A DNA stretch of 64,000 nucleotides from an uncultured Bifidobacteriaceae bacterium (GTDB lineage Bacteria; Verrucomicrobiota; Verrucomicrobiia; Limisphaerales; UBA11358), in assembly GCA_964475285.1 (NCBI GenBank), contig CAYYWB010000001.1, forward strand, positions 6,529 to 70,528, in the 5' to 3' direction. Shown in pieces: positions 5,629-38,538 of the stretch. The notes below the pieces were generated by a model that was given only the letters and a program-made list of their open reading frames with translations, was not told where the DNA came from and ran no database searches. Numbering within the stretch: the stretch's first letter is position 1; each line of letters begins with the position of its first letter. Both the position numbers and the translations under genes were made by a program.

Positions 5629-6114
5629 TTAGCCGTAAAAATACCCAGCTTCTCGTAACGATGAACGCCCAGGGTTTCCCATAATAACGTGGTCAATCAC
5701 CTCAATTTTCAGCAACTGGCCGGCGCGAATGAGATCGCGTGTCACTTTAATGTCAGCCTCGCTCGGCGTTGGGTCGCCGGAAGGGTGGTTGTGCATGAGC
5801 ACGATGGCTGACGCGCAGCCAACCACTGCAACCCGGAACACCTCGCGCGGATGCACCAACACCGTGTCCATCGTGCCAATGGTCACAAGCTGATGTCCTT
5901 TCACCCGGCGGCGCGTGTTCAGTAGGATGACCACCAAACACTCGCGTTCCGGGTCGAAATACGGATGCGTCGCAATGTGCATCCGCCAGTAGTCGGCAGC
6001 CTGATCCGGCGTCTCGCAAGTGAGCATATACTCCGGCACCGGACAATCCCGCAGGGCAACCACCTTGAATTCCTTCGGATTGAAGTCATTCATGGGCGGC
6101 CTCGCTTTCCGCAA
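5629..6114 (-). CDS. radC: RadC-like JAB/MPN domain protein
   Basis: JAMM motif HNHPSGDPTPSEADIKVT. The size and context (next to ArdC) are typical of mobile-element RadC. An alternative start MNDF lies at 6093. Confidence 0.8.
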   Translation of the reverse strand: MRKARPPMNDFNPKEFKVVALRDCPVPEYMLTCETPDQAADYWRMHIATHPYFDPERECLVVILLNTRRRVKGHQLVTIGTMDTVLVHPREVFRVAVVGCASAIVLMHNHPSGDPTPSEADIKVTRDLIRAGQLLKIEVIDHVIMGNPGRSSLREAGYFYG

Positions 6115-6940
6115 ACGTCCGGCCCAGAATGAAGTCCGCCGCCCTCTGCGCCTGCGCCGCCGCAGAGACGATGAGCGTCCGGTCGTTTTGTAACTGCTTC
6201 AGCCAGCCTTCAAGGTAAGCGGCCGAGTTGTCAATCGTCCGATCAACGATGCCGGCGTAACCGCACAGAAACGCACTGCCGAGTTCGGCGATCAATTCCT
6301 CTTTGCAGTAGGGATCGGAGCCGAAACCGTTGCGCTCGGCGATGCTGGCGCGATTCAGCCGCTTTTCACTGCCGGTGGAGTGAATGAGTTCGTGGAAAAG
6401 CGTGGCATAATAGCCGGCTTCGCTGTCGAACCGTTCCCGCTCCGGCATTCCGACGCAATCTTCGCGCGGGGAATAGAATGCCTGGGCCATGCCGTGCTTT
6501 ATGACGGGCGGCTGCGGCATACCTGCCACAATCTCCGCCGGTTTGGTGACGGGCATTTGAATTTCTCCCGGCGCGTCTTTCAAGCCTTCGCATTGTGCGA
6601 CATTGAAGACGTGATACAGGCGGAGCAGCGGAGCTTTCTTCGGCTCGTCTGATTCCTCGTTCTCATTCTTCATCCGTTTCCAGAAAACTACGGGACAGGC
6701 TTTCTCGCCCTTCTTCACGTTGCCGCCAAGCTGGATGGCCTGACGGAATGTGAGCCAATGGGGCGATTCGTAGCTCGTGGCCATGAGCAGGAATACATTG
6801 ATGCCGCGATACGGCTTTTTGCTGATGAGATTCCGGGGCAGGCCAGTTTTGACCGTCCACGGTTTGTGCCAGGGAACCGTGCCTTGCTCCAGCAAGGACA
6901 CGATCCGTTCGGTGATGCGCTCATACGAGTGAATATTCAT
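6086..6940 (-). CDS. ardC: ArdC-like antirestriction protein (ssDNA-binding N-domain + zincin metalloprotease)
   Basis: N-terminal GTVPWHKPW and C-terminal HELIHSTG (HExxH). I chose the start MNIHSYERI at 6940 because it is preceded by GGAG; the longer track ORF reads through the upstream repeat cassette. Confidence 0.8.
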   Translation of the reverse strand: MNIHSYERITERIVSLLEQGTVPWHKPWTVKTGLPRNLISKKPYRGINVFLLMATSYESPHWLTFRQAIQLGGNVKKGEKACPVVFWKRMKNENEESDEPKKAPLLRLYHVFNVAQCEGLKDAPGEIQMPVTKPAEIVAGMPQPPVIKHGMAQAFYSPREDCVGMPERERFDSEAGYYATLFHELIHSTGSEKRLNRASIAERNGFGSDPYCKEELIAELGSAFLCGYAGIVDRTIDNSAAYLEGWLKQLQNDRTLIVSAAAQAQRAADFILGRTFAESEAAHE

Positions 6941-7086
6941 GTGATTTCTCCTATTATTGGTTTGAAAAAGAACCCTGTGAACCCACTGTGAAGCGTATGG
7001 CAGCACACGAAATCGCCATAGACGGGACGACTTGCCAGATATGGCAAGTGAGAAAAAAGGGCGACCCGGATGGATCGCCCTTGTGT
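6941..7086 (-). repeat. intergenic cassette copy 1 (hairpin/T-run + 20-bp palindrome 7030-7049 + conserved leader)
   Basis: In gene direction it reads GGGCGATCCATCCGGGTCGCCCTTTTTT, then ACTTGCCATATCTGGCAAGT, then CGTC-CCGTCT, then GCCATACGCTTCAC..GGGTTCACAGGGTTC, then RBS and ATG. It is about 85 percent identical by eye to copies 2 and 4. Confidence 0.8.
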
Positions 7087-7200
7087 TTAGTCATCTTCGG
7101 GCATCAAAACCGATGTCGCGGAGCGATCTGCCCCGGTGATGAATTTGGCGCCATTGGAGGTGTGATATACCCACCTCGTTTTTCGTCCGGTCTTGTTCAT
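7087..7200 (-). pseudogene. C-terminal fragment of a paralog of the 9728..10015 gene
   Basis: Hand translation gives ..MNKTGRKTRWVYHTSNGAKFITGADRSATSVLMPEDD*, versus ..RLWSAYHTGNGVKFWLITEADRSVTSVLMPEDY* in the full copy. The DNA is alignable with a 6-nt in-frame gap. There is no upstream Met in frame beyond 37 codons. Confidence 0.4.
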
Positions 7201-7213
7201 CCACGTCACCCGA

Positions 7214-7495
7214 TCACCCGCCTGATGGCATTTGTTGCCTTCGAGGCTGTCCGGGCTGGTTGCCGATCCACTCGAAAGCCCGGGCGGCGATCAGGCTGAC
7301 AACCAAAAGGTTGTTGCGGCCGAAGCTTGTGGAATTCTTCCAGGAATCGCCGTCCTTGTAGGACCGCTGGAAGGTGACGTTGAACATCTGGCCTTTATCC
7401 GTCTCCTGGCGCCAGATGCTGGCGCTGACGGCACCGTGGCGGATCTTGTGGACGGGTTGACTGTTTGATGCACTAACTGGCGTTTGATTTTCCAT
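7214..7495 (-). CDS. hypothetical protein (93 aa)
   Basis: The start MENQTPVSASN at 7495 is preceded by AGGAG. The longer track ORF reads through cassette copy 2. Confidence 0.5.
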   Translation of the reverse strand: MENQTPVSASNSQPVHKIRHGAVSASIWRQETDKGQMFNVTFQRSYKDGDSWKNSTSFGRNNLLVVSLIAARAFEWIGNQPGQPRRQQMPSGG

Positions 7496-7650
7496 GTAAT
7501 ACTCCTGTGGTTGTTTGTTGATTTGAAAGAACCCTGTGAACCCTCGACCAAGCGTATGGCAGCGCACGAAATTGCCAAAGACGGTCTGACTTGCCAGATG
7601 TGGCAAGTGAGAAAAACGGCGACCCATTGAGTCGCCCTTGTGTTTTCTTC
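7496..7650 (-). repeat. intergenic cassette copy 2 (palindrome 7589-7608)
   Basis: Same architecture and near-identical leader as copy 1: ACTTGCCAGATGTGGCAAGT plus the hairpin GGCGACCCATTGAGTCGCC. Confidence 0.8.
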
Positions 7651-7680
7651 GATATAACGAGCGGTGCTGGCGGTAAATGA

Positions 7681-7712
7681 AAAAACCGGTCACACTGGCT
7701 GGGTGTGACCGG
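7681..7712 (-). terminator. rho-independent terminator after the ligase gene
   Basis: The minus strand reads CCGGTCACACCCAGCCAGTGTGACCGGTTTTT (9-bp stem plus T-run), 13 nt after the stop at 7725. Confidence 0.65.
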
Positions 7713-7724
7713 CTGATATGCCCC

Positions 7725-8801
7725 TTACTCCGCCTTGAATTTGAGTTGCGACATCAGGCATTCGCCGGGTTCAACGTCATCGCGTGGCCCCAGATACACG
7801 GGCTGATACAGGGATAGGCTGTCCCGGTAGGCGTAGAGATAACGCACCTCCACGACCGCGCCGACCGGCGGAATTTGATGGTTGGCCGGGATGGTGACGT
7901 TGCCGCACGAAACCAGGCTCCGTCCCTGAAACAAACTCACCTCCACGCTGCGCCGCATGTTCACATTGGCCACTATCGCCGACACCGTGGCGACAAATTT
8001 GAACTTCAACTGCGGCCCGCCCCGGTTGGGTTTGCCCGGGACATGGGGCGCATCGAGCCGTTTGAACACGATGCCCTCCCGGTTCTCCCGCCGCAACCGT
8101 TCCCAAAGTTCGGTCTTTTGCCGGGTCTTGAACGCGGTTTCGACCAGCCGGACATGCTTGAGTTCCGGACTGGATGACAAGAGGAGATCCGCCAGCCGCG
8201 CGAATCGCTCCCGATACGGCAACGGACGCAAGTTGTCGCCATGGAGTTCAAGCAAGTCGAAGGCGTGGTAGTCGTCACCGACGGATTCGCCGTCGGGGAT
8301 GAAGCTGCCGGATAAACAACGGAGCTCGTTGGCCACGGTCTGCGGCAAGCCGACGATCAATCCCTTTTTGTTTATCCCCTCAATCCGTTCGTCCTCTTTG
8401 CGGATCAACAGGTGCCGCCCGTCGAATTTTTCCTGCGCACAATAGCTGTCGTCGCGCAAAAGGGCTTCGACCTCGGCTTCCTCGACCGGATTCGGCAGTT
8501 GGGGCAGGATGCCCGATGGCTGCCTGCCGGCGTGCTCATACGGCGTGCCGTCCGGGCCCTCGGTATAACCCTTGGCTTTCTTTTCGCCGACGAGCTTGGC
8601 GTGGATTTTCCTGGCCGTGTCATAATCCACCGGCGAAGAGGTCTTCGTCCCAGTCGAGAGGGTGGCGCCCCGCCGTCCATAGGCGAAGTTGACGACGAAA
8701 TTGCCGCCGGCCGCTTCAATCGCGGCCTGATAGACCTTGTCCGACGTGCCGGCCCGGTAATATAACGTCACGCGATCTGGTGTTGTGCTGACTGCATTCA
8801 T
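7725..8801 (-). CDS. WGR domain fused to ATP-dependent DNA ligase
   Basis: The N-terminus has a WGR-like pattern (VTLYYRAGTSDKVYQAAIE..FAYGRRGATLSTGTKT). The adenylation motif I is EKFDGRHLL (KxDG). Confidence 0.75.
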   Translation of the reverse strand: MNAVSTTPDRVTLYYRAGTSDKVYQAAIEAAGGNFVVNFAYGRRGATLSTGTKTSSPVDYDTARKIHAKLVGEKKAKGYTEGPDGTPYEHAGRQPSGILPQLPNPVEEAEVEALLRDDSYCAQEKFDGRHLLIRKEDERIEGINKKGLIVGLPQTVANELRCLSGSFIPDGESVGDDYHAFDLLELHGDNLRPLPYRERFARLADLLLSSSPELKHVRLVETAFKTRQKTELWERLRRENREGIVFKRLDAPHVPGKPNRGGPQLKFKFVATVSAIVANVNMRRSVEVSLFQGRSLVSCGNVTIPANHQIPPVGAVVEVRYLYAYRDSLSLYQPVYLGPRDDVEPGECLMSQLKFKAE

Positions 8802-8951
8802 GTTGTTCCTTTCTTTTGGTTGTTGTTTGTGAAGAACCTGTGTTCCCAGGATAAATACTGGGGCCAGACGGCGATGGAGTGGAGACGGCAGGACTTGCCA
8901 AATACGGCAAGTGAGAAAAAGGGCGATCCTGATGGATCGCCCTTGTGCCAG
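8802..8951 (-). repeat. intergenic cassette copy 3 (palindrome 8893-8912, diverged leader)
   Basis: ACTTGCCAAATACGGCAAGT plus the hairpin GGGCGATCCTGATGGATCGCCC. The leader is more diverged than in copies 1, 2 and 4. Confidence 0.7.
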
Positions 8952-9254
8952 TCACCTCTTCCTGCGGTTCAGGATGGGGAGTTCGGAATGCGGCGAGATG
9001 TGGAACAGCTTGGGCGGCTGCTCAAACCGCACTGGCTTGTCGAAGCGGGTTTTGAAGGTCCGCACGCGCTGGTTCATGATGATGACCGCCGAGCATTCGT
9101 TGACGCGGATGACGCGGCAGAGCCGTTCGTTGAGCCGGATGACATCCCCGGCCCGCAGCTTGAACGGATACTCCGGCAGCCGCCAGAGGATGCCAAACTC
9201 GGACTGGTCCGGGTCGCGGCCGTTCTGCTTCCCGCCGGACAGTTTGGTTTTCAT
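8952..9254 (-). CDS. hypothetical protein (100 aa)
   Basis: The start MKTKLSGGK at 9254 forms an ATGA overlap with the stop of the upstream gene (9251-9253). Confidence 0.5.
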   Translation of the reverse strand: MKTKLSGGKQNGRDPDQSEFGILWRLPEYPFKLRAGDVIRLNERLCRVIRVNECSAVIIMNQRVRTFKTRFDKPVRFEQPPKLFHISPHSELPILNRRKR

Positions 9255-9580
9255 ACGCCGCAATCCTCCATCGCGTCAACGATGGCGTCCTCGTCGTCGC
9301 CCAAGAGCTCGACGATGCCGGCCTTGAGCGCGGCCTTGTCGGGATCGGGCCTGGCGTCCTTGGGACACGCCGGGCAGCGCATGACGTTTAGAACCGAGCC
9401 GCCGAATTCAAAGCCGACGGCCTTGAACTTCTCGCGGTAGCGATCCAGCAACTTCACGTTCGGCGACAACTGCGTCCATGCCTTCGCCTCGGCGTGGGAC
9501 AGGTCGGTTTCAAAGATGGCGTCATGCCGCAGGTGATACGCATCCCACGGCTCGCCACAGGTGGTGCAATGAACATCCAT
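9251..9580 (-). CDS. hypothetical Cys-rich (possible zinc-ribbon) protein (109 aa)
   Basis: The start MDVHCTTCGEPW at 9580 follows GGAG. CxxC...CPAC pairs are present. Confidence 0.5.
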   Translation of the reverse strand: MDVHCTTCGEPWDAYHLRHDAIFETDLSHAEAKAWTQLSPNVKLLDRYREKFKAVGFEFGGSVLNVMRCPACPKDARPDPDKAALKAGIVELLGDDEDAIVDAMEDCGV

Positions 9581-9727
9581 GATGAATCTCCTTTCTGTGT
9601 GTGGTTGAAAAGAACCCTGTGAACCCGGGGTGAAGCGTATGGCACCGTGCGAAGGCACCAAAGACGGTCTGACTTGCCAGATGCGGCAAGTGAGAAAAAA
9701 GGCGACCCGTATGGATCGCCCTTGTGT
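9581..9727 (-). repeat. intergenic cassette copy 4 (palindrome 9672-9691)
   Basis: ACTTGCCAGATGCGGCAAGT plus the hairpin GGCGACCCGTATGGATCGCC and the conserved leader GGGTTCACAGGGTTC. Confidence 0.8.
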
Positions 9728-10015
9728 TTAGTAGTCTTCAGGCATCAAAACCGATGTCACGGAGCGATCTGCCTCGGTGATGAGCCAGAATTTGACGCCA
9801 TTGCCGGTGTGATACGCCGACCAAAGGCGCGTGCCTTCGACAAGCGCACGCTCGTTGGCTGCGCGGTCGTCTTCGCTGACATCGCCCCAATCACCGGCTT
9901 GGTGCCGTCCGATGGCAAGCAGGATGTCCTCTTGCGTCAATCGGTCGAGCGCGTTCGGCGTGGATACGATCCTGCCAAGCCGAAACTTGGCAATGGGCTG
10001 GGTATTCGCGGTCAT
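9728..10015 (-). CDS. conserved plasmid-associated hypothetical protein (GDWG motif)
   Basis: 95 aa, containing HQAGDWGDVSEDDRAANERAL. It has an ATGA overlap with the upstream gene at 10012-10015. The family name is not recalled with certainty. Confidence 0.5.
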   Translation of the reverse strand: MTANTQPIAKFRLGRIVSTPNALDRLTQEDILLAIGRHQAGDWGDVSEDDRAANERALVEGTRLWSAYHTGNGVKFWLITEADRSVTSVLMPEDY

Positions 10016-10338
10016 ACCGCAATTCCTTCCGCCTCGAAATTGCGGATGTTTTGGAGTGTCTGGTCAATTACCTGACCGGTCAGCGTCCAGCTTCGTTTCC
10101 GTGGCAGTTCGACGATCACCGCCCACTTGAAGCGCTGATACATGTCCAGCGCCTGCCGATCGTCGGTCAGATGGTCGGCGAGAATGGCCAGCGCCAGTTG
10201 TGCCGGGCCGCTGCCGCAATATCCCCATTCAAACCCCGTCGGACTGTGGTTATACAAATCCAGCCGGGGATTGAGCGGACGGCCGTCCACGGTGACGATG
10301 ACAGCGTAACCCTGCCGCCTTCCTTCGTATGTTTTCAT
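10012..10338 (-). CDS. hypothetical protein, DUF6166-like
   Basis: 108 aa containing YNHSPTGFEWGYCGSGPAQLALAIL. The family assignment is from memory only. Confidence 0.45.
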   Translation of the reverse strand: MKTYEGRRQGYAVIVTVDGRPLNPRLDLYNHSPTGFEWGYCGSGPAQLALAILADHLTDDRQALDMYQRFKWAVIVELPRKRSWTLTGQVIDQTLQNIRNFEAEGIAV

Positions 10339-10362
10339 GTGATCCTCCTTTCCGGTTGATTT

Positions 10363-10797
10363 TCAGAGTTCGAGGCAATGATCCTCGACGGCGTTACCCG
10401 CCACCTTGGTGATGCCCTTGAAGCCCATGCCCATTTCCTCGTAATCAAGGAGGAAGATGAGAGCGGGCCAATCGGGGGCGATTTTTGACAGGAACGGAAC
10501 GGGCGGGGTCCAGGCTGTCTCGAAGGCATATTCGAGACGCCCCTCCCATTCATCCACCAGTGCGGCGGAACAGGCACCCCATTTGCAGCCCCAGTTTCTG
10601 AGTTCCCATTCGTAGCCAGCCTGCTCATAGCCTGTGGAGAGGATCTCCGGCGGGATGGGCAGGAGGCTGTGGAAGTTGAGGGCGTTCTTTTCTCCTTCCG
10701 CGTGCCACGGTGAATGGCCGATGGCTTTTTCCTTGAACCGTTTAATGTCCTCGTCCGGTCCATGGACCACGAGTTTGTTGTTGCACCAATTGGGCAT
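10363..10797 (-). CDS. hypothetical protein, DUF1281-like
   Basis: The start MPNWCNNKLVVHGP is at 10797. This N-terminal signature recalls plasmid DUF1281/YubB-like proteins, from memory only. Confidence 0.45.
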   Translation of the reverse strand: MPNWCNNKLVVHGPDEDIKRFKEKAIGHSPWHAEGEKNALNFHSLLPIPPEILSTGYEQAGYEWELRNWGCKWGACSAALVDEWEGRLEYAFETAWTPPVPFLSKIAPDWPALIFLLDYEEMGMGFKGITKVAGNAVEDHCLEL

Positions 10798-10807
10798 AAT
10801 TCTCCTT

Positions 10808-11833
10808 TCAGGCGAACAATGCCGCCACGTCCTCGGCGGACAGTTGATCCGGTTGCGCACCGGGCTGGTCGAAAACGTGCATTTTGACGAAACAGAATTT
10901 CGCCAGACGAACGGCAATGTCCTCCCGTCCCGCTTCGCCCGCCTCGTCCTCGTCGAGCATGACGATGACCTGGCTATGGCGGTCGGTGTGTCTCTTGATC
11001 AACTCCTCCTGCGCGGCTGACATGGTGCTGCCCATCAAGGCAACCACCTTGCGATAGCCGGACTGGTGGAGTTTCATGCAATCGAAGAATCCCTCGACGA
11101 TGACAAGCGGCATATCCCTCGGTTCCTTGATGGCCCGGTCAATGTTGAACAACTCCTGCGATTTGCGGAATCCCTGGGGCAGTTTGTATTTGGGCGTGTC
11201 CTCGGCTGGTTCACCGGGGAAGCGGCCTGCATACGCTACGACATTGCCTTCCGGGTTTTGGATGGGAATGGCAATCCGGTCCGCCATCATGCCTTTGGCG
11301 CAGAAGCCGATGCCGAAATCCACGATGGTTTCGAGCGTCAGGCCGCGTTCGGCCAGATATGGATGGCTGCGCTCAAGCTTGTCCAAGCGGAACTTCAATG
11401 GCTTGTTGGGTGTGCCGTTTTCCTGAACCGGTGATGGTTTTGCGGCCGGTTTCGGTTTGGGCGCGTCCCCGGCCTTCGGCGCGTCGCTTGTCTCTCCGGC
11501 TTCCTCGTGGGAATCCGCCGACATGGCTTCGGGGTCGAGGTTGAACCATTCAATGGCTTTCAACGCCGCCGCGTGGACGCTCACGTCCTCCATCCGAACG
11601 ATGAAATCGAGGACGTTGCCGCCGTGCTTACATTCAGAAAAACAGTTCCAGATGTTTTTGCTGATGCTCACCCGGAACTGCGTCGGGTTGCTGCCTTTGT
11701 GGATCGGACACGGGCCGCTCAAGCTGTCGCTGCCGCGCTTGAACTTGTCCAGGATGCCGTAGTGCTCAAGCACCTGCTCCATTGTGATGGCCGCTTTGAC
11801 GGCCTTGAAGTCAACGAACGATGATTTTGGCAT
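10808..11833 (-). CDS. DnaG-type DNA primase (CHC2 zinc finger + TOPRIM)
   Basis: The zinc finger is CPIHKGSNPTQFRVSISKNIWNCFSECKHGG. The TOPRIM signature is VIVEGFFDCMKL...VMLDEDEAGEAG. I chose the start MPKSSF at 11833, after GGAG. Confidence 0.8.
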   Translation of the reverse strand: MPKSSFVDFKAVKAAITMEQVLEHYGILDKFKRGSDSLSGPCPIHKGSNPTQFRVSISKNIWNCFSECKHGGNVLDFIVRMEDVSVHAAALKAIEWFNLDPEAMSADSHEEAGETSDAPKAGDAPKPKPAAKPSPVQENGTPNKPLKFRLDKLERSHPYLAERGLTLETIVDFGIGFCAKGMMADRIAIPIQNPEGNVVAYAGRFPGEPAEDTPKYKLPQGFRKSQELFNIDRAIKEPRDMPLVIVEGFFDCMKLHQSGYRKVVALMGSTMSAAQEELIKRHTDRHSQVIVMLDEDEAGEAGREDIAVRLAKFCFVKMHVFDQPGAQPDQLSAEDVAALFA

Positions 11834-11924
11834 ATTTCTCCTGTGGTTATTTGGTTGTGATGAACTGGTGCGGCTCCAAAATTGAGCTGCATCTAAAGGC
11901 AAGCCTATCCGTCTCAATGAAAAC

Positions 11925-12860
11925 CTAGGAGACGGGACCACTTGCCAAATTTGGCAAGTCCAGGATGCCTGCCGTTTCGCTGGATTTGCCGCGCCGCCAG
12001 ACCGCAGAGAACGGGTCTTTCTCCAAAACCGTCCGGTCGGCAAACAGAAACAGACCATGACCGCGTTTCAATTGGGAACAGGCTTCAAGAAGCGATGTCA
12101 CCCGCGCGGCAACCGTGGTGACGGTCAGAACACGGAAACGATGGATGCCGAGACGCCGCTGGTGAATCTTCTGCGTCCAGGTTGCTTCGTATGCGATGAG
12201 TTTGCGGTAAAAGGATGTTTGCGTCAGTCCGCTTCGCACAACCGGCATGGTGCCCCGGTCGGCTTCGAGGAAAAAATGCACCCGCTCTGGTCGGCCGTTC
12301 TGATCCCTGTATTCCAAGGCGAATACCCGGTCGGGGATGACGCCGAGCCTGATGCCGCCCGGCGTCTTTACGCGCCACTGAAACGGCTCTCGTTCCGAGC
12401 GGAGCGCAAGCTGGTCCTCGTAGAGCGGTTTGATACCGCCATGTTTTCGGCAGGCGAGTTCAAGGGACACCATCATGTCTGAAACCAAGAGCGCGTGTTC
12501 AAGGAATATCCGGCCTACGGCGCGGTTCTTCTCGCCCCAGGACACTTCCCGAAAATCCACGTTAAGTTCCTGCTTCAAAAACGCCCGGCTTTTGCTTCCT
12601 AACCCGTAAATGATGTGTTGCGAACCGCCGTTGCCGTAGCGGTCAATTTGCGCGCGGGGCCGCTCCAAATATCCGTGGTGGTAAAGCAATTTCAGCCGCC
12701 GCAATAGCTGCTGCGGGCTGCCGCCGATGAGCGCCACAATTTGCGTTGAACGGAGAAAACGATGCCGGTGAACGAGCCGGATGATTCGGTGGTCGCGTTC
12801 CGTGAGCCGCATGGGAGCGACTGTGGGAGCGCGTTTGAAGCGGGGAAGGCGGGATACCAT
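11925..12860 (-). CDS. replication-relaxation (Replic_Relax) family protein
   Basis: N-terminal winged-helix-like LTERDHRIIRLVHRHRFLRSTQIVALIGGSPQQLLRRLKLLYHHGYLER. An alternative start MRLTERD is possible. The 3' end overlaps palindrome 11940-11959. Confidence 0.65.
   Translation of the reverse strand: MVSRLPRFKRAPTVAPMRLTERDHRIIRLVHRHRFLRSTQIVALIGGSPQQLLRRLKLLYHHGYLERPRAQIDRYGNGGSQHIIYGLGSKSRAFLKQELNVDFREVSWGEKNRAVGRIFLEHALLVSDMMVSLELACRKHGGIKPLYEDQLALRSEREPFQWRVKTPGGIRLGVIPDRVFALEYRDQNGRPERVHFFLEADRGTMPVVRSGLTQTSFYRKLIAYEATWTQKIHQRRLGIHRFRVLTVTTVAARVTSLLEACSQLKRGHGLFLFADRTVLEKDPFSAVWRRGKSSETAGILDLPNLASGPVS
11940..11959 (-). promoter_or_regulatory. palindrome copy 5 upstream of primase gene
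   Basis: ACTTGCCAAATTTGGCAAGT, followed in gene direction by GGTC-CCGTCT. Confidence 0.6.
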
Positions 12861-12904
12861 CCTGCCACATTGCCGGAGCTACAAGAAACGAAGAAGACAT
12901 GACG

Positions 12905-12924
12905 ACTTGCGATTTTGGGCAAGT
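12905..12924 (-). promoter_or_regulatory. palindrome copy 6 (degenerate) upstream of Replic_Relax gene
   Basis: ACTTGCGATTTTGGGCAAGT, followed in gene direction by CGTC-ATGTCT. Confidence 0.5.
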
Positions 12925-13101: not shown

Positions 13102-14049
13102 ATGATGGTTCAGAGAGGTTATCGGATTGCAGGCCACGAGTCTTTTCCGTGCCGCTACACATGGCTGCCCAAGACCATGCGCGGGTTGCAGGGGAATCCC
13201 AAACTTTTTTCAGACGACGAGAGCGCAATGGTGAGCTTGGGTGTTGGCAAAAATATGGTTCGGTCGATTCGTTTTTGGGCGCAAGTGACCGGGATGGCCG
13301 AGCCTTTGGTGCGAAACGCCGGGTATCAGCCAACGACAATTGGCCAGCTCGTGCTGGGTGCCAACGGACGCGATCCATTTCTCGAAGATATTCGGACGCT
13401 GTGGCTCATTCATTGGAATTTGTCCACGGACATTGAAACCCCCCTTCTGGCCTGGGATTATTTGCTGAACAAATGGCAGGAAACCGACCTCGTGCAGAGC
13501 CGTATTTTGAAAGAATTGGAACAGGAGGTTTCAAAGCTGGACGACAAGTTTTCCATCGTAACGCTGGAGCAGCATTTTGAAACCTTCCTCCATACCTACA
13601 TCCCCACGCGCGGGCGGAAAGGCGAAGTGCAGGAGGACAATCTTGATTGCCCGCTTGTTGAATTGGGACTTCTTATGAGGGTCGGTGAGCGCGAAACTGA
13701 TAAAATCGCGGGCCGGCGCGAGCCAATTTACAACTTTAATCGTGAAGAAAAGCCCGAAATCACTTCTGACCTTTTCGTTTATTGTTTGAACGATTTTTGG
13801 CGGAAACGCCATCCAAACGATGAAACACTCCAGTTCAGGGAGGTTGCTCATGGACATGGCAGCCCGGGTCGTGTTTTCAAATTGGCAGAGGAGGACGTTC
13901 GAGTGAGGGTTGAGCGTTTGGCGCGAGAAACCGAAGGGTATTTCAGCTACAACGAATCATCCGTTTTGCAACAAGTCCGTCGAAGAGGTTGGCGTGACCA
14001 AGAAGTCTTGCTGAAAGCGATTTACATAAACGAGGTGCAGTATGCGTGA
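13102..14049 (+). CDS. sspB: SspB-like DUF4007 protein (phosphorothioation nickase family)
   Basis: 315 aa. The N-terminal signature is GHESFPCRYTWLPK. It lies directly upstream of, and overlaps by 8 nt, a large P-loop gene that is followed by a PAPS-reductase-like gene. Confidence 0.6.
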   Translation: MMVQRGYRIAGHESFPCRYTWLPKTMRGLQGNPKLFSDDESAMVSLGVGKNMVRSIRFWAQVTGMAEPLVRNAGYQPTTIGQLVLGANGRDPFLEDIRTLWLIHWNLSTDIETPLLAWDYLLNKWQETDLVQSRILKELEQEVSKLDDKFSIVTLEQHFETFLHTYIPTRGRKGEVQEDNLDCPLVELGLLMRVGERETDKIAGRREPIYNFNREEKPEITSDLFVYCLNDFWRKRHPNDETLQFREVAHGHGSPGRVFKLAEEDVRVRVERLARETEGYFSYNESSVLQQVRRRGWRDQEVLLKAIYINEVQYA

Positions 14050-17000: not shown

Positions 17001-17497
17001 ATGCCTTCGATCTTCCTGGGACATTTCAGCAATTCAGAACTGCGCTTGCTGGACGCGCTCAACAGGTCGTGTTCGGTGTGACCGAGCCAAAACTAAAAGC
17101 ACTTTGCTTACGCTTGCTTGATGACAATTTGCCTGAAGCTGAATGGCTGGAATCATTGGGCAGCTATCTCGCGCTCAAGCCGCCGTCGAAATGGCATGAT
17201 GCCGAGGAAGATTTGTTCAGCCAGGAACTTGCTGAATTGGCAACACGATTTCATCGTGTCGAAAGTATTATGTTTGTCCGCGGCAAGCCACCCAAGGATG
17301 GTGTTGGCATCCGGTTGGCCATCACCCAAGCCAACGGCACGGAATACGAACAAGTAATTCATGTTGCCGCCGGTGAAGAGCAAAGATTGCATGTGCTACA
17401 AGGCCAATTTGAGGCATTGCTGACAAAAGACAGAAGGCTTGGTTTGGCGGCGGCATCGCGCGCGCTTTGGTCTTCATTGGAAAAAGAGGAGAAATAA
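14042..17497 (+). CDS. sspC: SspC-like large P-loop ATPase (DUF499-like)
   Basis: 1151 aa. The Walker A is GDYGSGKSSFALLL. The position between DUF4007 and PAPS-reductase genes matches the Ssp gene order. Confidence 0.6.
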   Translation: MRDKHVLDLFQIKTRFLRSAQLERDFGDPDAFAGYVMTDFAHSCLGRVAAGLRPKSSQRAWRMTGDYGSGKSSFALLLAHWFAGNDSVFPPQIRKAVNFHQFGVSNPHFVPVLLTCSRQALGTTILKSLHQTVSEVYGKGEKSRLAVELGKLLNGKNEPSDEQVLNALLEVNSRIIADCKGNGLILILDELGKFFEFAALHPQRQDVFLLQRLAETASRSGNEPLFVVCLLHQGFNAYADYLNQSAQREWEKVSGRFDEIVFNQPVEQIAYLIGSALNINTDQIPKPQAHDQKHAMERSLALGWFGSANAEGLQNLAVDLYPLHPAMLPVLIRTFRRFGQNERSLFSFLLSNEPFGLQTFSAKSLQGAEPYRLHDFYDYVRTNFGHRLVAQSYRSHWNLIDSLIESFATEDPVQVKILKTVGILNLLNDSDLVPTEEAIVCALAGTDCNGQKRIRAALEKLRTGRRVLYDRGQARGLCLWPHTSVDLEKAYEDARRAIEVPKRVAGLIKDYLETRPIVARRHYIETGNLRHFDVRYCSITEMPAVVQNQTTDSDGSIVILLCETEQERDVALNLATAAELRDRINWLVAVPRPLNNLAGLVQEVQRWDWIASQIPELNADKYAREEVTRQKMDARSQLERRIQSVIGFKQMGGQMTLDWFHQAQPLEIRHGRHLLEELSRLCDETYSEAPRIHNELVNRRALSSAAAAARMRLIERMFTSASLEWLGMNPAKKPPEMSMYLSVLQHTGFHRKHHETWRIDEPDHKTDENCKVLPALRRIQSVVCKEADGRVNVATLFDELRRPPYGLRNGVIPILLTVFAIAHEQEVSFFKDGTFLRELTGEMMLLLTKAPDKFEIQYCKVEGIRAELFDKLLAVMEVKHSVNRKTELLDVVRPLCAFVAQLPSYVLNTKKLNPTAAAVRDTILNAREPASLLFTDLPKACGFERFTTDAAANKTVQLFVKTLKAGIDELRAAFPELQDRLRKKLRDAFDLPGTFQQFRTALAGRAQQVVFGVTEPKLKALCLRLLDDNLPEAEWLESLGSYLALKPPSKWHDAEEDLFSQELAELATRFHRVESIMFVRGKPPKDGVGIRLAITQANGTEYEQVIHVAAGEEQRLHVLQGQFEALLTKDRRLGLAAASRALWSSLEKEEK

Positions 17498-17498
17498 A

Positions 17499-26663: not shown

Positions 26664-26885
26664 CAAGCCAACGAATTTTGCCGGAAAGGAGAAATATATG
26701 CAACCAATGCAACGCAAATATTTCATACGCGTTGAACAGTGAATGCACGAAATGCCAAAAATCCACGCATACTACGTATGTAATCAGTCACACTATTTGC
26801 GGAGGAAAATTCGGCAAAGCCAATGCGACATATTTTTCATGGCGCTGAAACGGCATCAACTGGGAAAGGCGTGGGGGCTTGCGAT

Positions 26886-28196
26886 TTAGGGCAAATTCTT
26901 CACGGCTTCATTCTTTTCCGTGGATTTTGAATCCATCCAGAGATTCAGCTTATCCTCAATGACGGCGCGCGGCATGGCAAAGCGTTGCCGCGACAGGGCG
27001 ACAAGCTTGTCCCGCCGCCCGATGCGGTTTTCAAGTGGCGGTAGCATTTTCGCCCGGAATGGTTCCTGGTTGGTCCCGTCCTCAAGCAACTTCACCGCCG
27101 CCTCATATCGCTCAAGATCGGCAAGGGCAGAGGCCGTGAATGTCTTGCCGAATTCCTTTTCCATCACCTCCGCATCCGCATAGCCAATGCGGAACGCGAT
27201 CAAGGTTCCGACATTGCCAAATACCGCCTGCCGCACCGGTGGCGAAAGCTGCTCAACGTATTGATGGGAAAGCGTCAGGCACAACCGATACTTGCGGGCT
27301 TCCGCCAGAATTGACGCAAACGCATCCGTGGAAAAGTTCTGAAACTCGTCAATGAACAGGTAGAAGTCGCGGCGTTTGTCTTCCGGCTGATCCGACCGCG
27401 CCATTGCGCCAAGCTGGAATTGCGTCACCAAAAGGGAGCCAAGCAGATTCGCCTTGTCGTGGCCAAGCTGGCCTTTGGACAGGTTGGCGACGAACAGCCG
27501 GCCGTTGTCCATGATGAAGCGGATGTTCACTTTGGCTTTTACCTGCCCCAGAATGTTGCGAACGACGGGATTCAATAGGAACTGGCCGATTTTGTTCTGG
27601 ATCGGCGCGATGGCCTCCCGTTGGAAACGTTCGTCATAATTCTCATATTCCTCCGCCCAAAATGCCCGGATGAACGGGTCTTTGATCTGCCGGACCACCT
27701 TGGCCCGGTATGCGTCATCCGTAAGCAGCCGGTTGACGCCCAAAAGAGTGGCGTTCCGGCAGTCCAAAAGGGCAGACACGGCGTTGTAGAGGATGTATTC
27801 CAGCCGTGGCCCCCAGGAATCGCGCCAGATGCCCTTGAAGGCGCTCACAATGCCGGATGCCACAAGGTGCCGATCATCCGGCGCCACATTGCCAATGACG
27901 TTCAATCCGGTGGGGAATTCAAGGTCGCCGGGATTGAAATACACCAAATGGTCGGCTCGCTTCGGCGGAATATGATTCAACAACTCCTCGGCCAAGTCCC
28001 CGTGGGGGTCAATGACGCCAACGCCATGTCCAAGGGCGATGTGCTGCAAAATCAAGTTTCGTAGCAATGTTGTCTTGCCGGAGCCGGTTTTGCCGATGAT
28101 GTAGAGGTGCTGGCGCTGATCTTTGGCAGATATGCCAAAGCGCCGGGATTCGCCCCAGCCTTCGCGTTCGCCAATTGTGATGGTGTGGTCGTTCAT
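26886..28196 (-). CDS. TraD/VirD4-like coupling-protein-type P-loop ATPase (no TM segment)
   Basis: Walker A GKTGSGKTT, then VIDPHGDL, Walker B FYLFIDEFQNF, and ARKYRLCLTLSHQY. The chosen start is MNDHTITIG at 28196. Confidence 0.65.
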   Translation of the reverse strand: MNDHTITIGEREGWGESRRFGISAKDQRQHLYIIGKTGSGKTTLLRNLILQHIALGHGVGVIDPHGDLAEELLNHIPPKRADHLVYFNPGDLEFPTGLNVIGNVAPDDRHLVASGIVSAFKGIWRDSWGPRLEYILYNAVSALLDCRNATLLGVNRLLTDDAYRAKVVRQIKDPFIRAFWAEEYENYDERFQREAIAPIQNKIGQFLLNPVVRNILGQVKAKVNIRFIMDNGRLFVANLSKGQLGHDKANLLGSLLVTQFQLGAMARSDQPEDKRRDFYLFIDEFQNFSTDAFASILAEARKYRLCLTLSHQYVEQLSPPVRQAVFGNVGTLIAFRIGYADAEVMEKEFGKTFTASALADLERYEAAVKLLEDGTNQEPFRAKMLPPLENRIGRRDKLVALSRQRFAMPRAVIEDKLNLWMDSKSTEKNEAVKNLP

Positions 28197-35324: not shown

Positions 35325-35344
35325 ACTTGCCAAATATGGCAAGT
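35325..35344 (+). promoter_or_regulatory. palindrome copy 7, oriented toward the 3' end of the recombinase gene
   Basis: ACTTGCCAAATATGGCAAGT, followed on the plus strand by CGGA-CCGTCT. Confidence 0.55.
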
Positions 35345-35409
35345 CGGACCGTCTTCCATCAGCTTGTTGGACTCATAATACTGGCCGCATGATATAAAAA
35401 TATCATTCA

Positions 35410-37440: not shown

Positions 37441-37484
37441 GCCGCCACTTTATCGGCTTGTCGCTTCCGGACAAAGACGGTCTG

Positions 37485-37504
37485 ACTTGCCAAATCTGGC
37501 AAGT
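37485..37504 (-). promoter_or_regulatory. palindrome copy 8 (drives the small ORF and recombinase)
   Basis: ACTTGCCAAATCTGGCAAGT. In the minus direction it is followed by CAGA-CCGTCT. Confidence 0.6.
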
Positions 37505-37521: not shown

Positions 37522-37550
37522 TTGACAGAAATGTAATAACGTGTTATAAT
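37522..37550 (+). promoter_or_regulatory. perfect-consensus sigma70 promoter
   Basis: TTGACA (37522-37527), a 17-nt spacer, then TATAAT (37545-37550). Confidence 0.6.
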
Positions 37551-37562
37551 ACATCATTGAAT

Positions 37563-37589
37563 GCCGAGCCGGACTGGTTCGGCTTTTTT
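37563..37589 (+). terminator. rho-independent terminator about 13 nt after the promoter -10
   Basis: GCCGAGCC-GGACT-GGTTCGGC followed by TTTTTT. Confidence 0.6.
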
Positions 37590-37594: not shown

Positions 37595-37614
37595 ACTTGC
37601 CAGATTTGGCAAGT
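37595..37614 (+). promoter_or_regulatory. palindrome copy 9 (drives the HTH / RuvC-like genes)
   Basis: ACTTGCCAGATTTGGCAAGT followed by GGAC-CCGTCT. The leader contains CACAGGGTTC, as in copies 1, 2 and 4. Confidence 0.6.
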
Positions 37615-37690
37615 GGACCCGTCTTCGATAATTTACGGCACCCGGCTATTGTGGCTCTGTTCGCGCACAGGGTTCGTTCGCATTGCCACC

Positions 37691-38044
37691 ATGTCTTCGC
37701 CTCAACTTACAAATTATCTGAGAACCAACCGAAACCGCCTCGCACTTTGGCAGGAGGAAACGGCCTTTTTGCTGGGCTTCAAGGGCGAAGACAAAGGAGG
37801 CAAGGTGTGCCGTGATGAGAAGTTCACCCGCGAGCCAAGCCTCCGGTCGGCACTGGCGTATGAGGCGATTTACGGTAAACCGATTCGCGAACTATTTGCC
37901 GGCCTGTATCAGCAGATCGAACAGGAGGTGGCGGAAAGAGCCAAACTTCTCACTTATAGGAAAGCTGGGAATCAAAACCCCAAGAGGCATCAGGCGCTTG
38001 CCAGTCTGGTTTCAAGGGTATTGCATAATCCATCACAAATATGA
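37691..38044 (+). CDS. HTH (XRE-like) regulator, putative
   Basis: 117 aa from MSSPQLTNYLRTNRNRLALWQEETAFLLG. It has a 4-nt overlap with the next gene. Confidence 0.4.
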   Translation: MSSPQLTNYLRTNRNRLALWQEETAFLLGFKGEDKGGKVCRDEKFTREPSLRSALAYEAIYGKPIRELFAGLYQQIEQEVAERAKLLTYRKAGNQNPKRHQALASLVSRVLHNPSQI

Positions 38045-38538
38045 ATCAAACACCATTAAAACATTTTCGCATCTTGGCTGTCGCGCTTTCTGCCGGGGGC
38101 TTTGGCTTTGTCGTCATGGAAGGGCAGAGAACGATTATTGAATTTGGTCGCCGGGTGGCGGATGGGGACAAAAACGCCCAATCCTTAGCCAAGCTGGAAA
38201 AATTGCTTAATTTTTACCAGCCTGACGTTTTGGTGCTTCAAGATGTGGAGGCCAAAGGCTCGCGTCGCTATCCCAGGATCAAAACGCTCAACCGGCAAAT
38301 CAAACGGATGGTGGAGAAGCACAAAATTAAGGTGAAACTGATTTCAAAAGGGCAATTGCAGACCTTGCTGCTTGACAATGCAAGGGGAACAAAACAGGAA
38401 ATGGCTGAAATGCTCGCGTCTCAATTTCCAGATGAACTGGCTTCGCGTTTGCCGCCGAAACGCAAACTGTGGAAAAGCGAGGACAGCCGCATGGACATTT
38501 TTGATGCGATGGCGCTGGCCGTGGTGTTTCAGATGTAG
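38041..38538 (+). CDS. RuvC-like / RNase H-fold protein, putative
   Basis: FRILAVALSAGGFGFVVME .. DVLVLQDVE .. DIFDAMALAVV resembles the RuvC strand order. However, the first catalytic Asp position reads AVALS. Confidence 0.3.
   Translation: MNQTPLKHFRILAVALSAGGFGFVVMEGQRTIIEFGRRVADGDKNAQSLAKLEKLLNFYQPDVLVLQDVEAKGSRRYPRIKTLNRQIKRMVEKHKIKVKLISKGQLQTLLLDNARGTKQEMAEMLASQFPDELASRLPPKRKLWKSEDSRMDIFDAMALAVVFQM

What the first reader, a model, noticed from the sequence alone, without database searches (positions are those of the whole stretch)
6941..12924. Repeated promoter/operator cassette: 20-bp palindrome ACTTGCCA-N4-TGGCAAGT with a fixed CCGTCT extension before nearly every backbone operon
**Seen in sequence**
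- There are nine copies in the window: 7030, 7589, 8893, 9672, 11940, 12905, 35325, 37485 and 37595.
- In eight of the nine, the palindrome is followed on one side only, after exactly 4 nt, by CCGTCT. The 12905 copy has ATGTCT.
- That side always points toward the downstream gene start, except for copy 7. The copy 7 exception is described in the finding at 35325-35409.
- The geometry TTGCCA + 17 nt + CGTCT is promoter-like. The palindrome occupies the -35 region and the spacer.
- Copies 1, 2 and 4 are embedded in ~140-bp intergenic cassettes that are near-identical by eye. Each has a GGGCGAnCC..GGnTCGCCC hairpin plus T-run, then the palindrome, then a conserved leader (GCCATACGCTT..GGGTTCACAGGGTTC), then the RBS.

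**Inference**
- The backbone is wired as a regulon of self-contained terminator-promoter-operator-leader modules.
- A single element-encoded dimeric regulator probably controls it. Candidates are the HTH at 37691 or the Replic_Relax winged-helix protein.
- The CGTC -10-like element hints at an alternative (ECF-like) sigma, but the -35 does not fit the usual AAC core.
Basis: partly seen in the sequence, partly recalled or inferred. Interest (0 to 1): 0.65.

Follow-up and report, generated by a model that had tools for sequence, protein, structure and literature searches.

The report
Shared promoter box of a mobile element
A 30-base signal repeated nine times in this window is real.

Summary
Nine copies of ACTTGCC-N6-GGCAAGT occur where none is expected by chance. 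Eight carry CCGTCT exactly 4 nt away on the gene-proximal side; the ninth has ATGTCT.

The promoter reading is wrong in its geometry. Across 237 non-identical instances from this window and 134 related loci, a TAnnnT hexamer lies exactly 22 nt after CCGTCT (155 instances, plus 28 at 21 nt, against about 4 expected). Two gene families start their ATG 6-7 nt after that hexamer, so their mRNAs are leaderless. This puts the transcription start about 35 nt downstream of CCGTCT.

CCGTCT therefore lies at about -41 to -36, and the palindrome at about -64 to -45. There is no consistent -35 and no TGn.

The box marks a conserved regulon: Replic_Relax, primase, ArdC/RadC, WGR-ligase, the serine recombinase and an XRE regulator. 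The regulon belongs to an integrative, probably mobilisable, element family of Verrucomicrobiota and Acidobacteriota. The box is not a genome-wide repeat.

The most likely mechanism is an upstream box for an element-encoded XRE helix-turn-helix protein (37691-38044) that activates these -35-poor promoters. A Kor/ArdK-type repressor role is the main rival. The ECF-sigma idea is not supported.

This is a new member of a known kind of system. Interest is moderate.

The parts
7020..7049 (-). Box copy 1 (palindrome 7030-7049, CCGTCT 7020-7025). The -10 hexamer TACGCT is at 6992-6997 and the inferred start at about 6984-6985. It drives ArdC (6086-6940) and RadC (5629-6114).
7579..7608 (-). Box copy 2 (CCGTCT 7579-7584). 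The -10 hexamer TACGCT is at 7551-7556. It drives a 93-aa gene (7214-7495).
8883..8912 (-). Box copy 3 (CCGTCT 8883-8888). The -10 hexamer CAGTAT is at 8855-8860. It drives the WGR-domain ATP-dependent ligase gene (7725-8801).
9662..9691 (-). Box copy 4 (CCGTCT 9662-9667). The -10 hexamer TACGCT is at 9634-9639. It drives a 109-aa gene (9251-9580) and a 100-aa gene (8952-9254).
11930..11959 (-). Box copy 5, inside the 3' end of the Replic_Relax gene (CCGTCT 11930-11935). The -10 hexamer TAGGCT is at 11902-11907. It drives primase (10808-11833), DUF1281_C, DUF6166 and a 95-aa gene.
12895..12924 (-). Box copy 6, a degenerate variant (ACTTGCCCAAAATCGCAAGT, ATGTCT 12895-12900). The -10 hexamer CAATGT is at 12867-12872. 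The leaderless ATG of Replic_Relax is at 12860 (gene 11925-12860).
35325..35354 (+). Box copy 7 (CCGTCT 35349-35354). The -10 hexamer AATACT is at 35377-35382 and the inferred start at 35389. It points antisense into the 3' end of the serine-recombinase gene and has no gene downstream.
37475..37504 (-). Box copy 8 (CCGTCT 37475-37480). The -10 hexamer TAAAGT is at 37447-37452. The leaderless ATG at 37440 opens a 50-aa gene (37288-37440), which is followed by the large serine recombinase (35410-37230).
37595..37624 (+). Box copy 9 (CCGTCT 37619-37624). The -10 hexamer TATTGT is at 37647-37652. It drives the XRE-type helix-turn-helix gene and the RuvC-fold gene.
37691..38044 (+). XRE-family helix-turn-helix protein (117 aa). 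It is the best candidate for the protein that reads the box.
38041..38538 (+). RuvC-fold protein (165 aa). Its start overlaps the stop of the XRE gene. It accompanies the XRE gene in most loci (39 with the RuvC-fold gene against 47 with the XRE gene), but is absent where a short 21-25%-identical XRE takes the place of the 117-aa one (L031, L130).
37522..37589 (+). Consensus sigma70 promoter (TTGACA 37522-37527, 17-nt spacer, TATAAT 37545-37550) followed by a hairpin and T6 (37563-37589). It lies between the two divergent box promoters and is conserved in related hubs.
7057..7082 (-). Terminator-like hairpin plus T-run directly upstream of box copy 1. Equivalent hairpins precede copy 2 (7618-7636), copy 3 (about 8921-8942), copy 4 (about 9701-9720) and copy 9.
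26877..26896 (-). Degenerate tenth palindrome (ATTTGCCCTAAATCGCAAGC on the minus strand). It contains the stop codon of the coupling-protein-like gene and is a duplicate of the copy-6 variant on the far side of the 13-26.8 kb cargo block.

Best explanation
The 30-bp element (a 20-bp palindrome, 4 nt, then CCGTCT) is an upstream regulatory box. It is fused at a fixed distance to weak sigma70-type promoters that lack a consistent -35.

**Geometry.** Take the A of ACTTGCC as position 1.
- The -10 hexamer (TAnnnT) lies at positions 53-58.
- Transcription starts at position 65 or 66.
- The palindrome therefore spans about -64 to -45, centred near -54.5.
- CCGTCT spans about -41 to -36, immediately upstream of where a -35 hexamer would lie.

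**Regulon.** Nine such promoters form one regulon. Five of them are insulated by a terminator that abuts the box. The regulon covers the element's integration genes (a 50-aa gene plus the serine recombinase), Replic_Relax, the primase operon, the ArdC/RadC and ligase establishment genes, and the regulator operon itself.

**Mechanism (inferred).** A dimer of the element's XRE helix-turn-helix protein (37691-38044) binds the palindrome. It may act together with the co-transcribed RuvC-fold protein. It recruits host RNA polymerase to these otherwise weak promoters, so the regulator feeds back positively on its own gene.

**What is shown and what is not.**
- Shown by sequence statistics: the geometry, the start site and the regulon.
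- Inferred: the identity of the binding protein and the sign of regulation.
For: **The box is real and rigid**
- 9 copies against 0 expected.
- of 216 distinct palindromes, 178 carry CCGTCT at N4 on exactly one side. The other 37 carry near-variants at the same place, and no other spacing is seen.

**The -10 hexamer**
- T53 0.66, A54 0.83, T58 0.84.
- TAnnnT sits at position 53 in 155 of 237 instances and at position 52 in 28. Other offsets hold 0-6 each.
- The spacer (positions 31-52) carries little information.
- different gene classes use different hexamers and spacers (TACGCT, TATTGT, TAAGGT, CAATGT, TAGGCT) at the same distance. The signal therefore does not come from copies of one cassette.

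**The start site**
- the ATG of the 50-aa gene begins at position 65 or 66 in 23 of 23 cases.
- The ATG of Replic_Relax begins at position 65 in 18 of 20 cases, with a conserved N-terminal peptide RLPRFKRA.

**The promoters are weak on their own**
- the match to TTGACA is only slightly above control, and TGn occurs in 3 of 237.
- the standard consensus scan finds no excess of promoters at 5-13.2 kb.
- the same element carries a perfect TTGACA-N17-TATAAT promoter in the hub, so its hosts use canonical promoters.

**The XRE protein as reader**
- an XRE gene is the commonest gene downstream of the box (60 of 248 downstream ORFs, 53 of 134 loci).
- in Acidobacteriota loci the only box in 8 kb is the one in front of the XRE plus RuvC-fold pair. 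In L008 that pair lies next to a tyrosine rather than a serine recombinase.
- sources name relatives XRE-family regulators, and the (non-significant) fold matches are nearly all XRE-type helix-turn-helix proteins.

**Precedent**
- An upstream position suits activation. XRE-type C proteins activate weak promoters of leaderless genes (PMC2632904).
- AcaCD activates 17 backbone promoters of IncA/C plasmids as a class-2 activator (PMC4207636).
Against: - No transcript, binding or reporter data exist for this element.
- A centre near -54.5 is not a classical class I or class II activator position.
- Nothing explains what reads CCGTCT. It does not resemble a palindrome half-site.
- XRE genes that follow the exact box diverge down to 21-25% identity. 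This is surprising if the XRE protein alone fixes a 20-base specificity.
- The structural model of the XRE protein is poor (pLDDT 69) and its fold matches are not significant.
- About a quarter of instances have a partial -35, such as TTGGCA in copy 2. Some of these promoters may therefore fire unaided.
Confidence: 0.55

Rival explanations
1. The box is a global repressor operator, as in the Kor or ArdK systems. The XRE protein, or another element protein, binds the palindrome and keeps all backbone promoters off in the integrated state. The promoters fire briefly on entry into a new cell, before repressor accumulates. The consensus promoter in the hub supplies the repressor.
For: - Leading-region genes such as ArdC and primase are repressor-controlled and transiently expressed in well-studied plasmids such as R388 and RK2 (established knowledge; the R388 network is cited in PMC4207636, reference 26).
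- XRE proteins next to recombinase genes are usually repressors.
- A constitutive promoter lies just upstream of the XRE gene.
- Partial -35 hexamers occur in about a quarter of instances.
Against: - The operator lies upstream of the core promoter, at -64 to -45. It does not overlap the -35, the -10 or the start site.
- The promoters have weak -10 hexamers and mostly no -35. They would be poor at an unaided burst on entry.
- A terminator separates the constitutive promoter from the XRE gene.
- The rigid spacing between the box and the -10 is what is expected of a factor that touches RNA polymerase.
Confidence: 0.25
2. The box answers to a regulator supplied in trans by a helper conjugative element. 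SGI1 and MGIVmi1 carry AcaCD boxes in this way. The element has no mating-pore genes in the window and would time its excision and mobilisation to the helper's transfer.
For: - No type IV secretion genes were found in the element. It has only a coupling-protein-like gene and Replic_Relax.
- There is precedent in PMC4207636.
- The box is better conserved than the XRE protein.
Against: - An XRE gene directly follows a box copy in 53 of 134 loci, and in distant loci it is the only gene that does.
- The genome scan found the box almost only in elements of this type.
Confidence: 0.08
3. TTGCCA is the -35 and CGTCT the -10 of an ECF-like promoter, transcription starts 7-10 nt after CCGTCT, and the palindrome is an overlapping operator.
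For: - TTGCCA-N17-CGTCT is literally present.
- CGTC resembles ECF -10 motifs (established knowledge).
Against: - A positioned TAnnnT lies 22 nt further downstream.
- Leaderless ATGs lie 34-35 nt after CCGTCT.
- CCGTCT tolerates CCCCCT and CCGCCT variants that destroy CGTC.
- There is no AAC core in the -35.
- No sigma-factor domain was found in the proteins scanned.
Confidence: 0.04
4. The palindrome acts as a nucleic-acid structure rather than a duplex protein site. Candidates are a single-strand promoter or priming signal in transferred DNA, a nick or recombination site, or an RNA hairpin.
For: - Positions 8 and 13 co-vary, A-T against G-C.
- An 8-bp hairpin forms in single strands, with z-scores of -2.7 to -4.2.
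- The cargo block is flanked by two copies of the copy-6 palindrome variant.
- Copy-7-type palindromes are repeated together with recombinase 3' fragments in L031, L038 and L130.
Against: - Only the short palindrome folds. The -10 hexamer is not placed in a duplex, unlike known single-strand promoters.
- The palindrome lies upstream of the inferred start, so it is absent from the RNA made by its own promoter.
- Nine oriented copies, each in front of an operon, fit promoters rather than a transfer origin.
- The co-variation is equally expected for a symmetric protein site.
Confidence: 0.05

Closest known systems
Master-activator regulons of conjugative and integrative elements (AcaCD of IncA/C plasmids, SetCD of SXT, BisDC of ICEclc)
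   Same: One element-encoded factor has a box upstream of many backbone operons. The box abuts or replaces the -35 of weak promoters. It controls recombinase and transfer genes together. AcaCD has 17 sites and class-2 geometry (PMC4207636).
   Different: Those activators are FlhD/FlhC-type heteromers, and no such domains are found here. The candidate here is an XRE protein, possibly with a RuvC-fold partner. The box is a perfect 20-bp palindrome plus an asymmetric hexamer, centred further upstream. Activation is not shown here.
Controller (C) proteins of restriction-modification systems and their C-boxes
   Same: They are small XRE-type helix-turn-helix dimers that bind palindromes upstream of weak promoters, regulate their own genes and often drive leaderless mRNAs (PMC2632904, PMC2175313).
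   Different: C-boxes are two tandem palindromic operators that end 17-18 nt before the start codon, with no recognisable -10 (PMC2632904). Here there is one palindrome plus CCGTCT, 34-35 nt before leaderless start codons, with a clear TAnnnT. The targets are nine promoters of a mobile element, not a restriction operon.
Global repressor networks of plasmid backbones (KorA/KorB operators of IncP RK2; ArdK, StbA and KorA of IncW R388)
   Same: Short palindromic operators are repeated before most backbone operons, including anti-restriction and primase genes (established knowledge).
   Different: Those promoters are strong, and the operators usually overlap or abut the core promoter. KorB is a ParB-type protein. 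Here the promoters are weak and the site lies upstream of the core promoter.
Phage late or middle promoters that need an activator in place of a -35 (P2 Ogr with a dyad near -55; T4 MotA box)
   Same: They combine a sigma70-type -10, no usable -35, and a conserved upstream element at a fixed distance.
   Different: The proteins are unrelated (a zinc-finger protein; MotA with AsiA) and so are the sequences. These are phage systems, not an integrative mobilisable element.

Membership tests
Sigma70-type (housekeeping) promoter | A -10 hexamer of the form TAnnnT placed 6-8 nt upstream of the start | tested here: met
   TAnnnT lies at positions 53-58 in 155 of 237 instances, plus 28 shifted by one. 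Leaderless ATGs lie at position 65 or 66. All nine window copies keep A at hexamer position 2 and T at position 6.
Sigma70-type (housekeeping) promoter | A -35 hexamer close to TTGACA, 16-18 nt upstream of the -10 | tested here: not met
   The best match is 2-3 of 6 in most instances and 4-5 of 6 in about a quarter. There is no consensus at positions 30-36. The consensus scan shows no excess of promoters.
ECF-sigma promoter | A -35 with an AAC core, 16-17 nt, a CGT(C) -10, and a start 6-8 nt after it | tested here: not met
   There is no AAC core. CGTC is replaced by CCCC or CGCC in many functional-looking copies. The start inferred from leaderless genes lies 34-35 nt after CCGTCT.
ECF-sigma promoter | A cognate sigma factor (Sigma70_r2 and Sigma70_r4 domains) encoded nearby | tested here: not met
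   No such Pfam hit was found in about 39 window proteins.
C-protein / C-box autoregulation | A small XRE-type helix-turn-helix regulator encoded directly downstream of its site | tested here: met
   The 117-aa protein has relatives named XRE-family, and some of them hit PF01381. The box lies 96 nt before its ATG.
C-protein / C-box autoregulation | Two tandem palindromic operators, with the site ending 17-18 nt before a leaderless start (PMC2632904) | tested here: not met
   There is one palindrome plus an unrelated hexamer. The distance to a leaderless ATG is 34-35 nt. The XRE gene itself has a leader of about 30 nt.
FlhDC-type master activators (AcaCD, SetCD, BisDC) | FlhC-like and FlhD-like subunits | tested here: not met
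   There are no such Pfam or NCBIfam hits. The two-gene operon encodes an XRE protein and a RuvC-fold protein.
FlhDC-type master activators (AcaCD, SetCD, BisDC) | Boxes upstream of many backbone operons, adjacent to the -35 | tested here: met
   There are nine oriented copies in the window, and the same gene classes follow the box in related loci.
REP-like or MITE-like genomic repeat | Many copies spread over the host chromosome, irrespective of gene starts | tested here: not met
   No copies occur in the flanking chromosome or the cargo of the window. There were 16 loci in 185,579 species genomes, with a single exact match on each of a 2.25-Mb and a 3.0-Mb contig.
Single-strand promoter or priming signal of transferred DNA (Frpo / ssi type) | A long imperfect hairpin that places the -35 and -10 in a duplex | tested here: not met
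   Only the 8-bp palindrome folds, on either strand.
Any described RNA family | A match to an Rfam covariance model | tested here: not met
   There were no matches at gathering threshold in the whole window.

The most novel reading that the evidence does not exclude
The box is a portable module that replaces the -35. It is read by a previously undescribed two-protein master regulator: an XRE helix-turn-helix dimer on the palindrome, plus a catalytically disabled RuvC-fold partner on or near CCGTCT. This pair switches on a whole family of integrative elements in Verrucomicrobiota and Acidobacteriota. The conserved consensus promoter and terminator in the hub act as the trigger or timer of a bistable switch.
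Probability: 0.15. Interest if true: 0.65.

Novelty: new member of a known kind. Interest (0 to 1): 0.42.

Why it matters
- **A regulon and start sites from sequence alone.** The analysis gives a complete, testable regulon and nine inferred transcription starts for an uncharacterised family of integrating mobile elements. The host phyla (Verrucomicrobiota, Acidobacteriota) have almost no promoter or regulator data.
- **What it shows about the hosts.** These hosts use canonical TTGACA/TATAAT promoters and leaderless mRNAs. The element's establishment, replication and recombination genes are tied to one signal.
- **Practical uses.** The 30-bp box plus the XRE gene is a candidate orthogonal expression switch for these poorly tractable bacteria.

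Tried and rejected
**Searches that found nothing**
- Rfam scan of the whole window: nothing.
- tRNA scan for an integration site: nothing.
- Standard promoter consensus scan at 5-13.2 kb: no excess.
- Plasmid collection searched with the backbone DNA: only scattered gene-level similarity.
- IMG/VR searched with the RuvC-fold protein: none.
- PDB sequence searches with profiles of the XRE and RuvC-fold proteins: nothing significant.
- NCBIfam and PHROGs for the small backbone proteins: nothing useful.
- Literature searches for the motif and the element type: no description found.

**Tests that were inconclusive**
- Fold search with the XRE model gave only non-significant XRE-type hits.
- The RNA-hairpin test of the conserved leader GGGUUCACAGGGUUC was inconclusive. 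It gave 82% paired against 80.5% in shuffles, and sliding by +1 did as well.
- The search for direct repeats marking the element ends gave only chance-level 11-12-mers.
- Distant XRE homologues on Bradyrhizobium and Sulfitobacter plasmids have a similar gene layout but not this box. They could not settle whether protein and box co-evolve.

**Readings considered and rejected**
- Sigma54: the spacing from GG to GC does not fit.
- A CRP/FNR-type host site and a LexA box: there are no chromosomal copies.
- A transfer origin: nine oriented copies in front of operons do not fit.

Full report
**1. The observation**

None was found in 100 dinucleotide-preserving shuffles.

- Oriented copies show CCGTCT exactly 4 nt beyond the palindrome, on one side only, in eight copies. 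The 12905 copy has ATGTCT.
- The genes between 5.6 and 12.9 kb are on the minus strand. The extended side faces the next start codon in every case except copy 7 (35325), which faces the 3' end of the serine-recombinase gene.
- Copies 1, 2 and 4 lie in 148-bp cassettes: a terminator hairpin and T-run, the box, a leader and a ribosome-binding site. These are 75-78% identical. Copy 3 is 61-66% identical. 'Near-identical' overstates this.
- A tenth, degenerate palindrome lies at 26877-26896.

**2. What the surrounding element is**

Pfam scans and synteny in related loci define a conserved backbone.

- One arm encodes a coupling-protein-like ATPase (26886-28292), Replic_Relax, a DnaG-type primase, DUF1281_C, DUF6166, three small proteins, a WGR-domain ligase, a 93-aa protein, ArdC and RadC.
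- At the other end lies a hub. A 50-aa gene and a large serine recombinase point one way. An XRE-type helix-turn-helix gene (37691-38044) and a 165-aa gene point the other way.
- The blocks at 13.1-26.8 kb and 28.8-35.3 kb are not conserved in relatives. They include DUF4007, a PAPS reductase, HATPase proteins, a cysteine desulfurase, an ImmA-like protease with an HTH_3 protein, an exonuclease and a ThiF protein. They are cargo.
- No mating-pore genes are present. The element looks like an integrative mobilisable element. This is an inference.

**3. Distribution of the box**

- A scan of one genome per species for ACTTGCC-N6-GGCAAGT-N4-CCGTCT gave 16 loci. Most are Verrucomicrobiota (Limisphaerales) genomes assembled from metagenomes. 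Some are Acidobacteriota, and a few carry other labels.
- Large contigs of 2.25 Mb and 3.0 Mb carry a single exact match each. The window has no copy in its chromosomal flank or in its cargo. The box is specific to the element and is not a genomic repeat.

**4. Where transcription starts**

I aligned 237 non-identical instances on the box, taking the A of ACTTGCC as position 1.

- Besides the palindrome (positions 1-20) and CCGTCT (25-30), only one other strongly conserved feature appears: T53 (0.66), A54 (0.83) and T58 (0.84).
- TAnnnT starts at position 53 in 155 instances and at position 52 in 28. Every other offset between 44 and 63 holds 0-6. This is the signature of a sigma70-type -10 hexamer.
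- It is not an artefact of one duplicated cassette. Gene classes differ in hexamer and in spacer sequence but keep the distance. Examples are TACGCT for ArdC and the 109-aa and 93-aa genes, TATTGT for the XRE gene, TAAGGT or TAAAGT for the 50-aa gene, CAATGT or CATTGT for Replic_Relax, and TAGGCT for primase.
- Independent support comes from two gene families. The ATG of the 50-aa gene begins at position 65 or 66 in 23 of 23 cases. The ATG of Replic_Relax begins at position 65 in 18 of 20 cases, with a conserved N-terminal peptide RLPRFKRA that confirms the start codon. No Shine-Dalgarno sequence can fit in the 6-7 nt after the hexamer, so these must be leaderless mRNAs that start at the A of the ATG.
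- In the window this moves the Replic_Relax start to 12860.

With the start at position 65 or 66, CCGTCT lies at about -41 to -36. The palindrome lies at about -64 to -45, centred near -54.5.

**5. Strength of the core promoters**

- There is no consensus at the -35 position. The best match to TTGACA is 2-3 of 6 in most instances and 4-5 of 6 in about a quarter. An extended -10 (TGn) occurs in 3 of 237.
- The generic consensus scan finds no excess of promoters in 5-13.2 kb.
- By contrast, the 90 bp between the two divergent hub boxes holds a perfect TTGACA-N17-TATAAT promoter (37522-37550) followed by a hairpin and T6. This is conserved in the related hubs examined.
- The hosts therefore read canonical promoters, and the box promoters are intrinsically weak.
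- The box is rigid. Among 216 distinct palindromes, CCGTCT or a near-variant (CCCCCT, CCGCCT, ACGTCT, ATGTCT) always lies at N4, on one side in 178 and on both sides in one. No other spacing is seen.
- Rigid spacing to the -10 across variable spacer sequence is what is expected if the factor bound at the box touches RNA polymerase.

**6. Who reads the box**

- An XRE-type gene is the commonest gene directly downstream of a box copy (60 of 248 downstream ORFs, 53 of 134 loci).
- In Acidobacteriota-type loci the only box in 8 kb is the one in front of the XRE plus 165-aa pair, which is 40-45% and 34-37% identical to the window proteins. In L008 that pair lies next to a tyrosine integrase rather than a serine recombinase. 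The promoter geometry, including TAnnnT at position 53, is kept there.
- The minimal travelling unit is therefore the box plus an XRE gene.
- Sources name relatives of the 117-aa protein XRE-family regulators. Its model is poor (pLDDT 69), and its fold matches are non-significant. They are nonetheless almost all XRE-type proteins: C proteins, Stl, lambda cI, SinR and antitoxins.
- The 165-aa protein has a confident RuvC fold (pLDDT 83; Foldseek E = 7e-9, TM about 0.7). Read by eye against the RuvC beta-1 motif, the first catalytic aspartate would be an almost invariant alanine. This is an inference with no residue-level structural alignment behind it.
- One caveat applies. XRE genes that follow the exact box range down to 21-25% identity, and some lack the RuvC-fold partner. 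Either the DNA-contacting residues are kept, or another factor reads the box.

**7. Most likely mechanism and its rivals**

Best explanation (confidence 0.55): the box is the binding site of the element's XRE protein, which activates -35-poor promoters, including its own.

- The sub-claims carry different confidence. 'A regulatory box at a fixed distance upstream of a sigma70-type core, with the start at position 65 or 66' is about 0.85. 'Read by the XRE protein' is about 0.6. 'Net activation' is about 0.6.
- Main rival (0.25): the same protein is a Kor/ArdK-type repressor.
- What reads CCGTCT remains unexplained.

**8. The conserved leader**

- In the leadered classes the inferred 5' end reads GGGUUCACAGGGUUC, followed by a U-rich and then an A/C-rich stretch before the ribosome-binding site.
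- CAGGGTT occurs at positions 73-76 in about 20% of instances and nowhere in the control windows.
- Variants such as GGAACC..GGUUC and GGAUU..AAUCC suggest a 5'-terminal hairpin. The pair-count test was inconclusive: 82% paired against 80.5% in shuffles, and a register shifted by +1 did as well.

**9. Comparison with known systems and novelty**

- In kind, this is a global cis-element regulon of a mobile-element backbone. Examples are AcaCD, SetCD and BisDC activators (PMC4207636) and KorA/KorB or ArdK repressors.
- In protein type it is closest to XRE-type C proteins, which activate weak promoters of leaderless genes (PMC2632904).
- It fails the defining features of each of these families: no FlhDC-type proteins, no tandem C-boxes and a different distance to the start.
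- No description of the motif or of the element family was found.
- I rate it a new member of a known kind, with moderate interest (0.42). The geometry and regulon are unusually well defined from sequence alone. The mechanism is untested, and the concept is familiar.

Noticed in passing
window 37522-37589 (+): A perfect sigma70 consensus promoter (TTGACA, 17-nt spacer, TATAAT) is followed about 12 nt later by a terminator-like hairpin and T6. It is wedged between the two divergent box promoters and is conserved in the related hubs examined. It would make an RNA of only about 30 nt, or leak into the XRE gene. Its function is unknown.
   Followed up: partly
window 35325-35409 (+): Box copy 7 has a correctly placed -10 (AATACT) and an ATG at the predicted start, but the ORF is only two codons long. 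The transcript would run antisense into the serine-recombinase gene. In L031, L038 and L130, copy-7-type palindromes recur together with fragments of about 100 bp from the recombinase 3' end. This looks like the trace of repeated integration or recombination at this spot.
   Followed up: partly
window 26877-26896 and 12905-12924: The stop codon of the coupling-protein-like gene lies inside a degenerate copy of the copy-6 palindrome variant. The two copies bracket the 14-kb cargo block. In relatives without this cargo, the two flanking genes are adjacent. The palindrome region may be where cargo is exchanged.
   Followed up: partly
window 7088-7200 (-): About 100 bp upstream of cassette 1 is 79% identical to the 3' end of the 95-aa gene plus its terminator (9692-9800). 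It is a gene remnant carried along with a duplicated cassette. Gene order between cassettes differs among relatives (for example L053), which suggests that the cassettes mediate module shuffling.
   Followed up: partly
window 11925-12860 (-): The Replic_Relax gene most likely starts at the leaderless ATG at 12860 (MVSRLPRFKRA...), not at the internal ATG at 12812. The N-terminal peptide is conserved in 19 relatives.
   Followed up: yes
window 38041-38538 (+): The 165-aa partner of the XRE protein has a confident RuvC fold. By eye, aligning beta-1 to the RuvC motif, the first catalytic aspartate appears to be replaced by a nearly invariant alanine. The XRE plus RuvC-fold gene pair also occurs on a Bradyrhizobium plasmid (L135).
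   Followed up: partly
window 6940-6985, 7495-7544, 8801-8848, 9580-9627 (-): The leadered mRNAs would begin with GGGUUCACAGGGUUC followed by a U-run and an A/C-rich stretch. This could be a 5'-terminal stem-loop built from G-U pairs. The covariation test was inconclusive.
   Followed up: partly
window 13102-26726: The cargo block holds DUF4007, a 1151-aa protein, a PAPS-reductase-like protein, two HATPase-domain proteins and a class-V aminotransferase (cysteine-desulfurase-like). It resembles a DNA-modification or defence island and has lower GC (45-51%) than the backbone (56-60%).
   Followed up: no
window 28802-34102: A second cargo block holds an ImmA/IrrE-type metalloprotease next to an HTH_3 regulator (30671-31659), an ExoX/RNase T-like exonuclease and a ThiF-family protein. 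None is conserved in related elements and none is preceded by the box.
   Followed up: no
L043 9058-9087 (+): In a related metagenome contig the box drives a leaderless 82-aa protein that looked HicA-like to me from its sequence; this was not checked against any family library. Its ATG is again at position 65. Accessory genes can therefore be plugged into the same promoter module.
   Followed up: no
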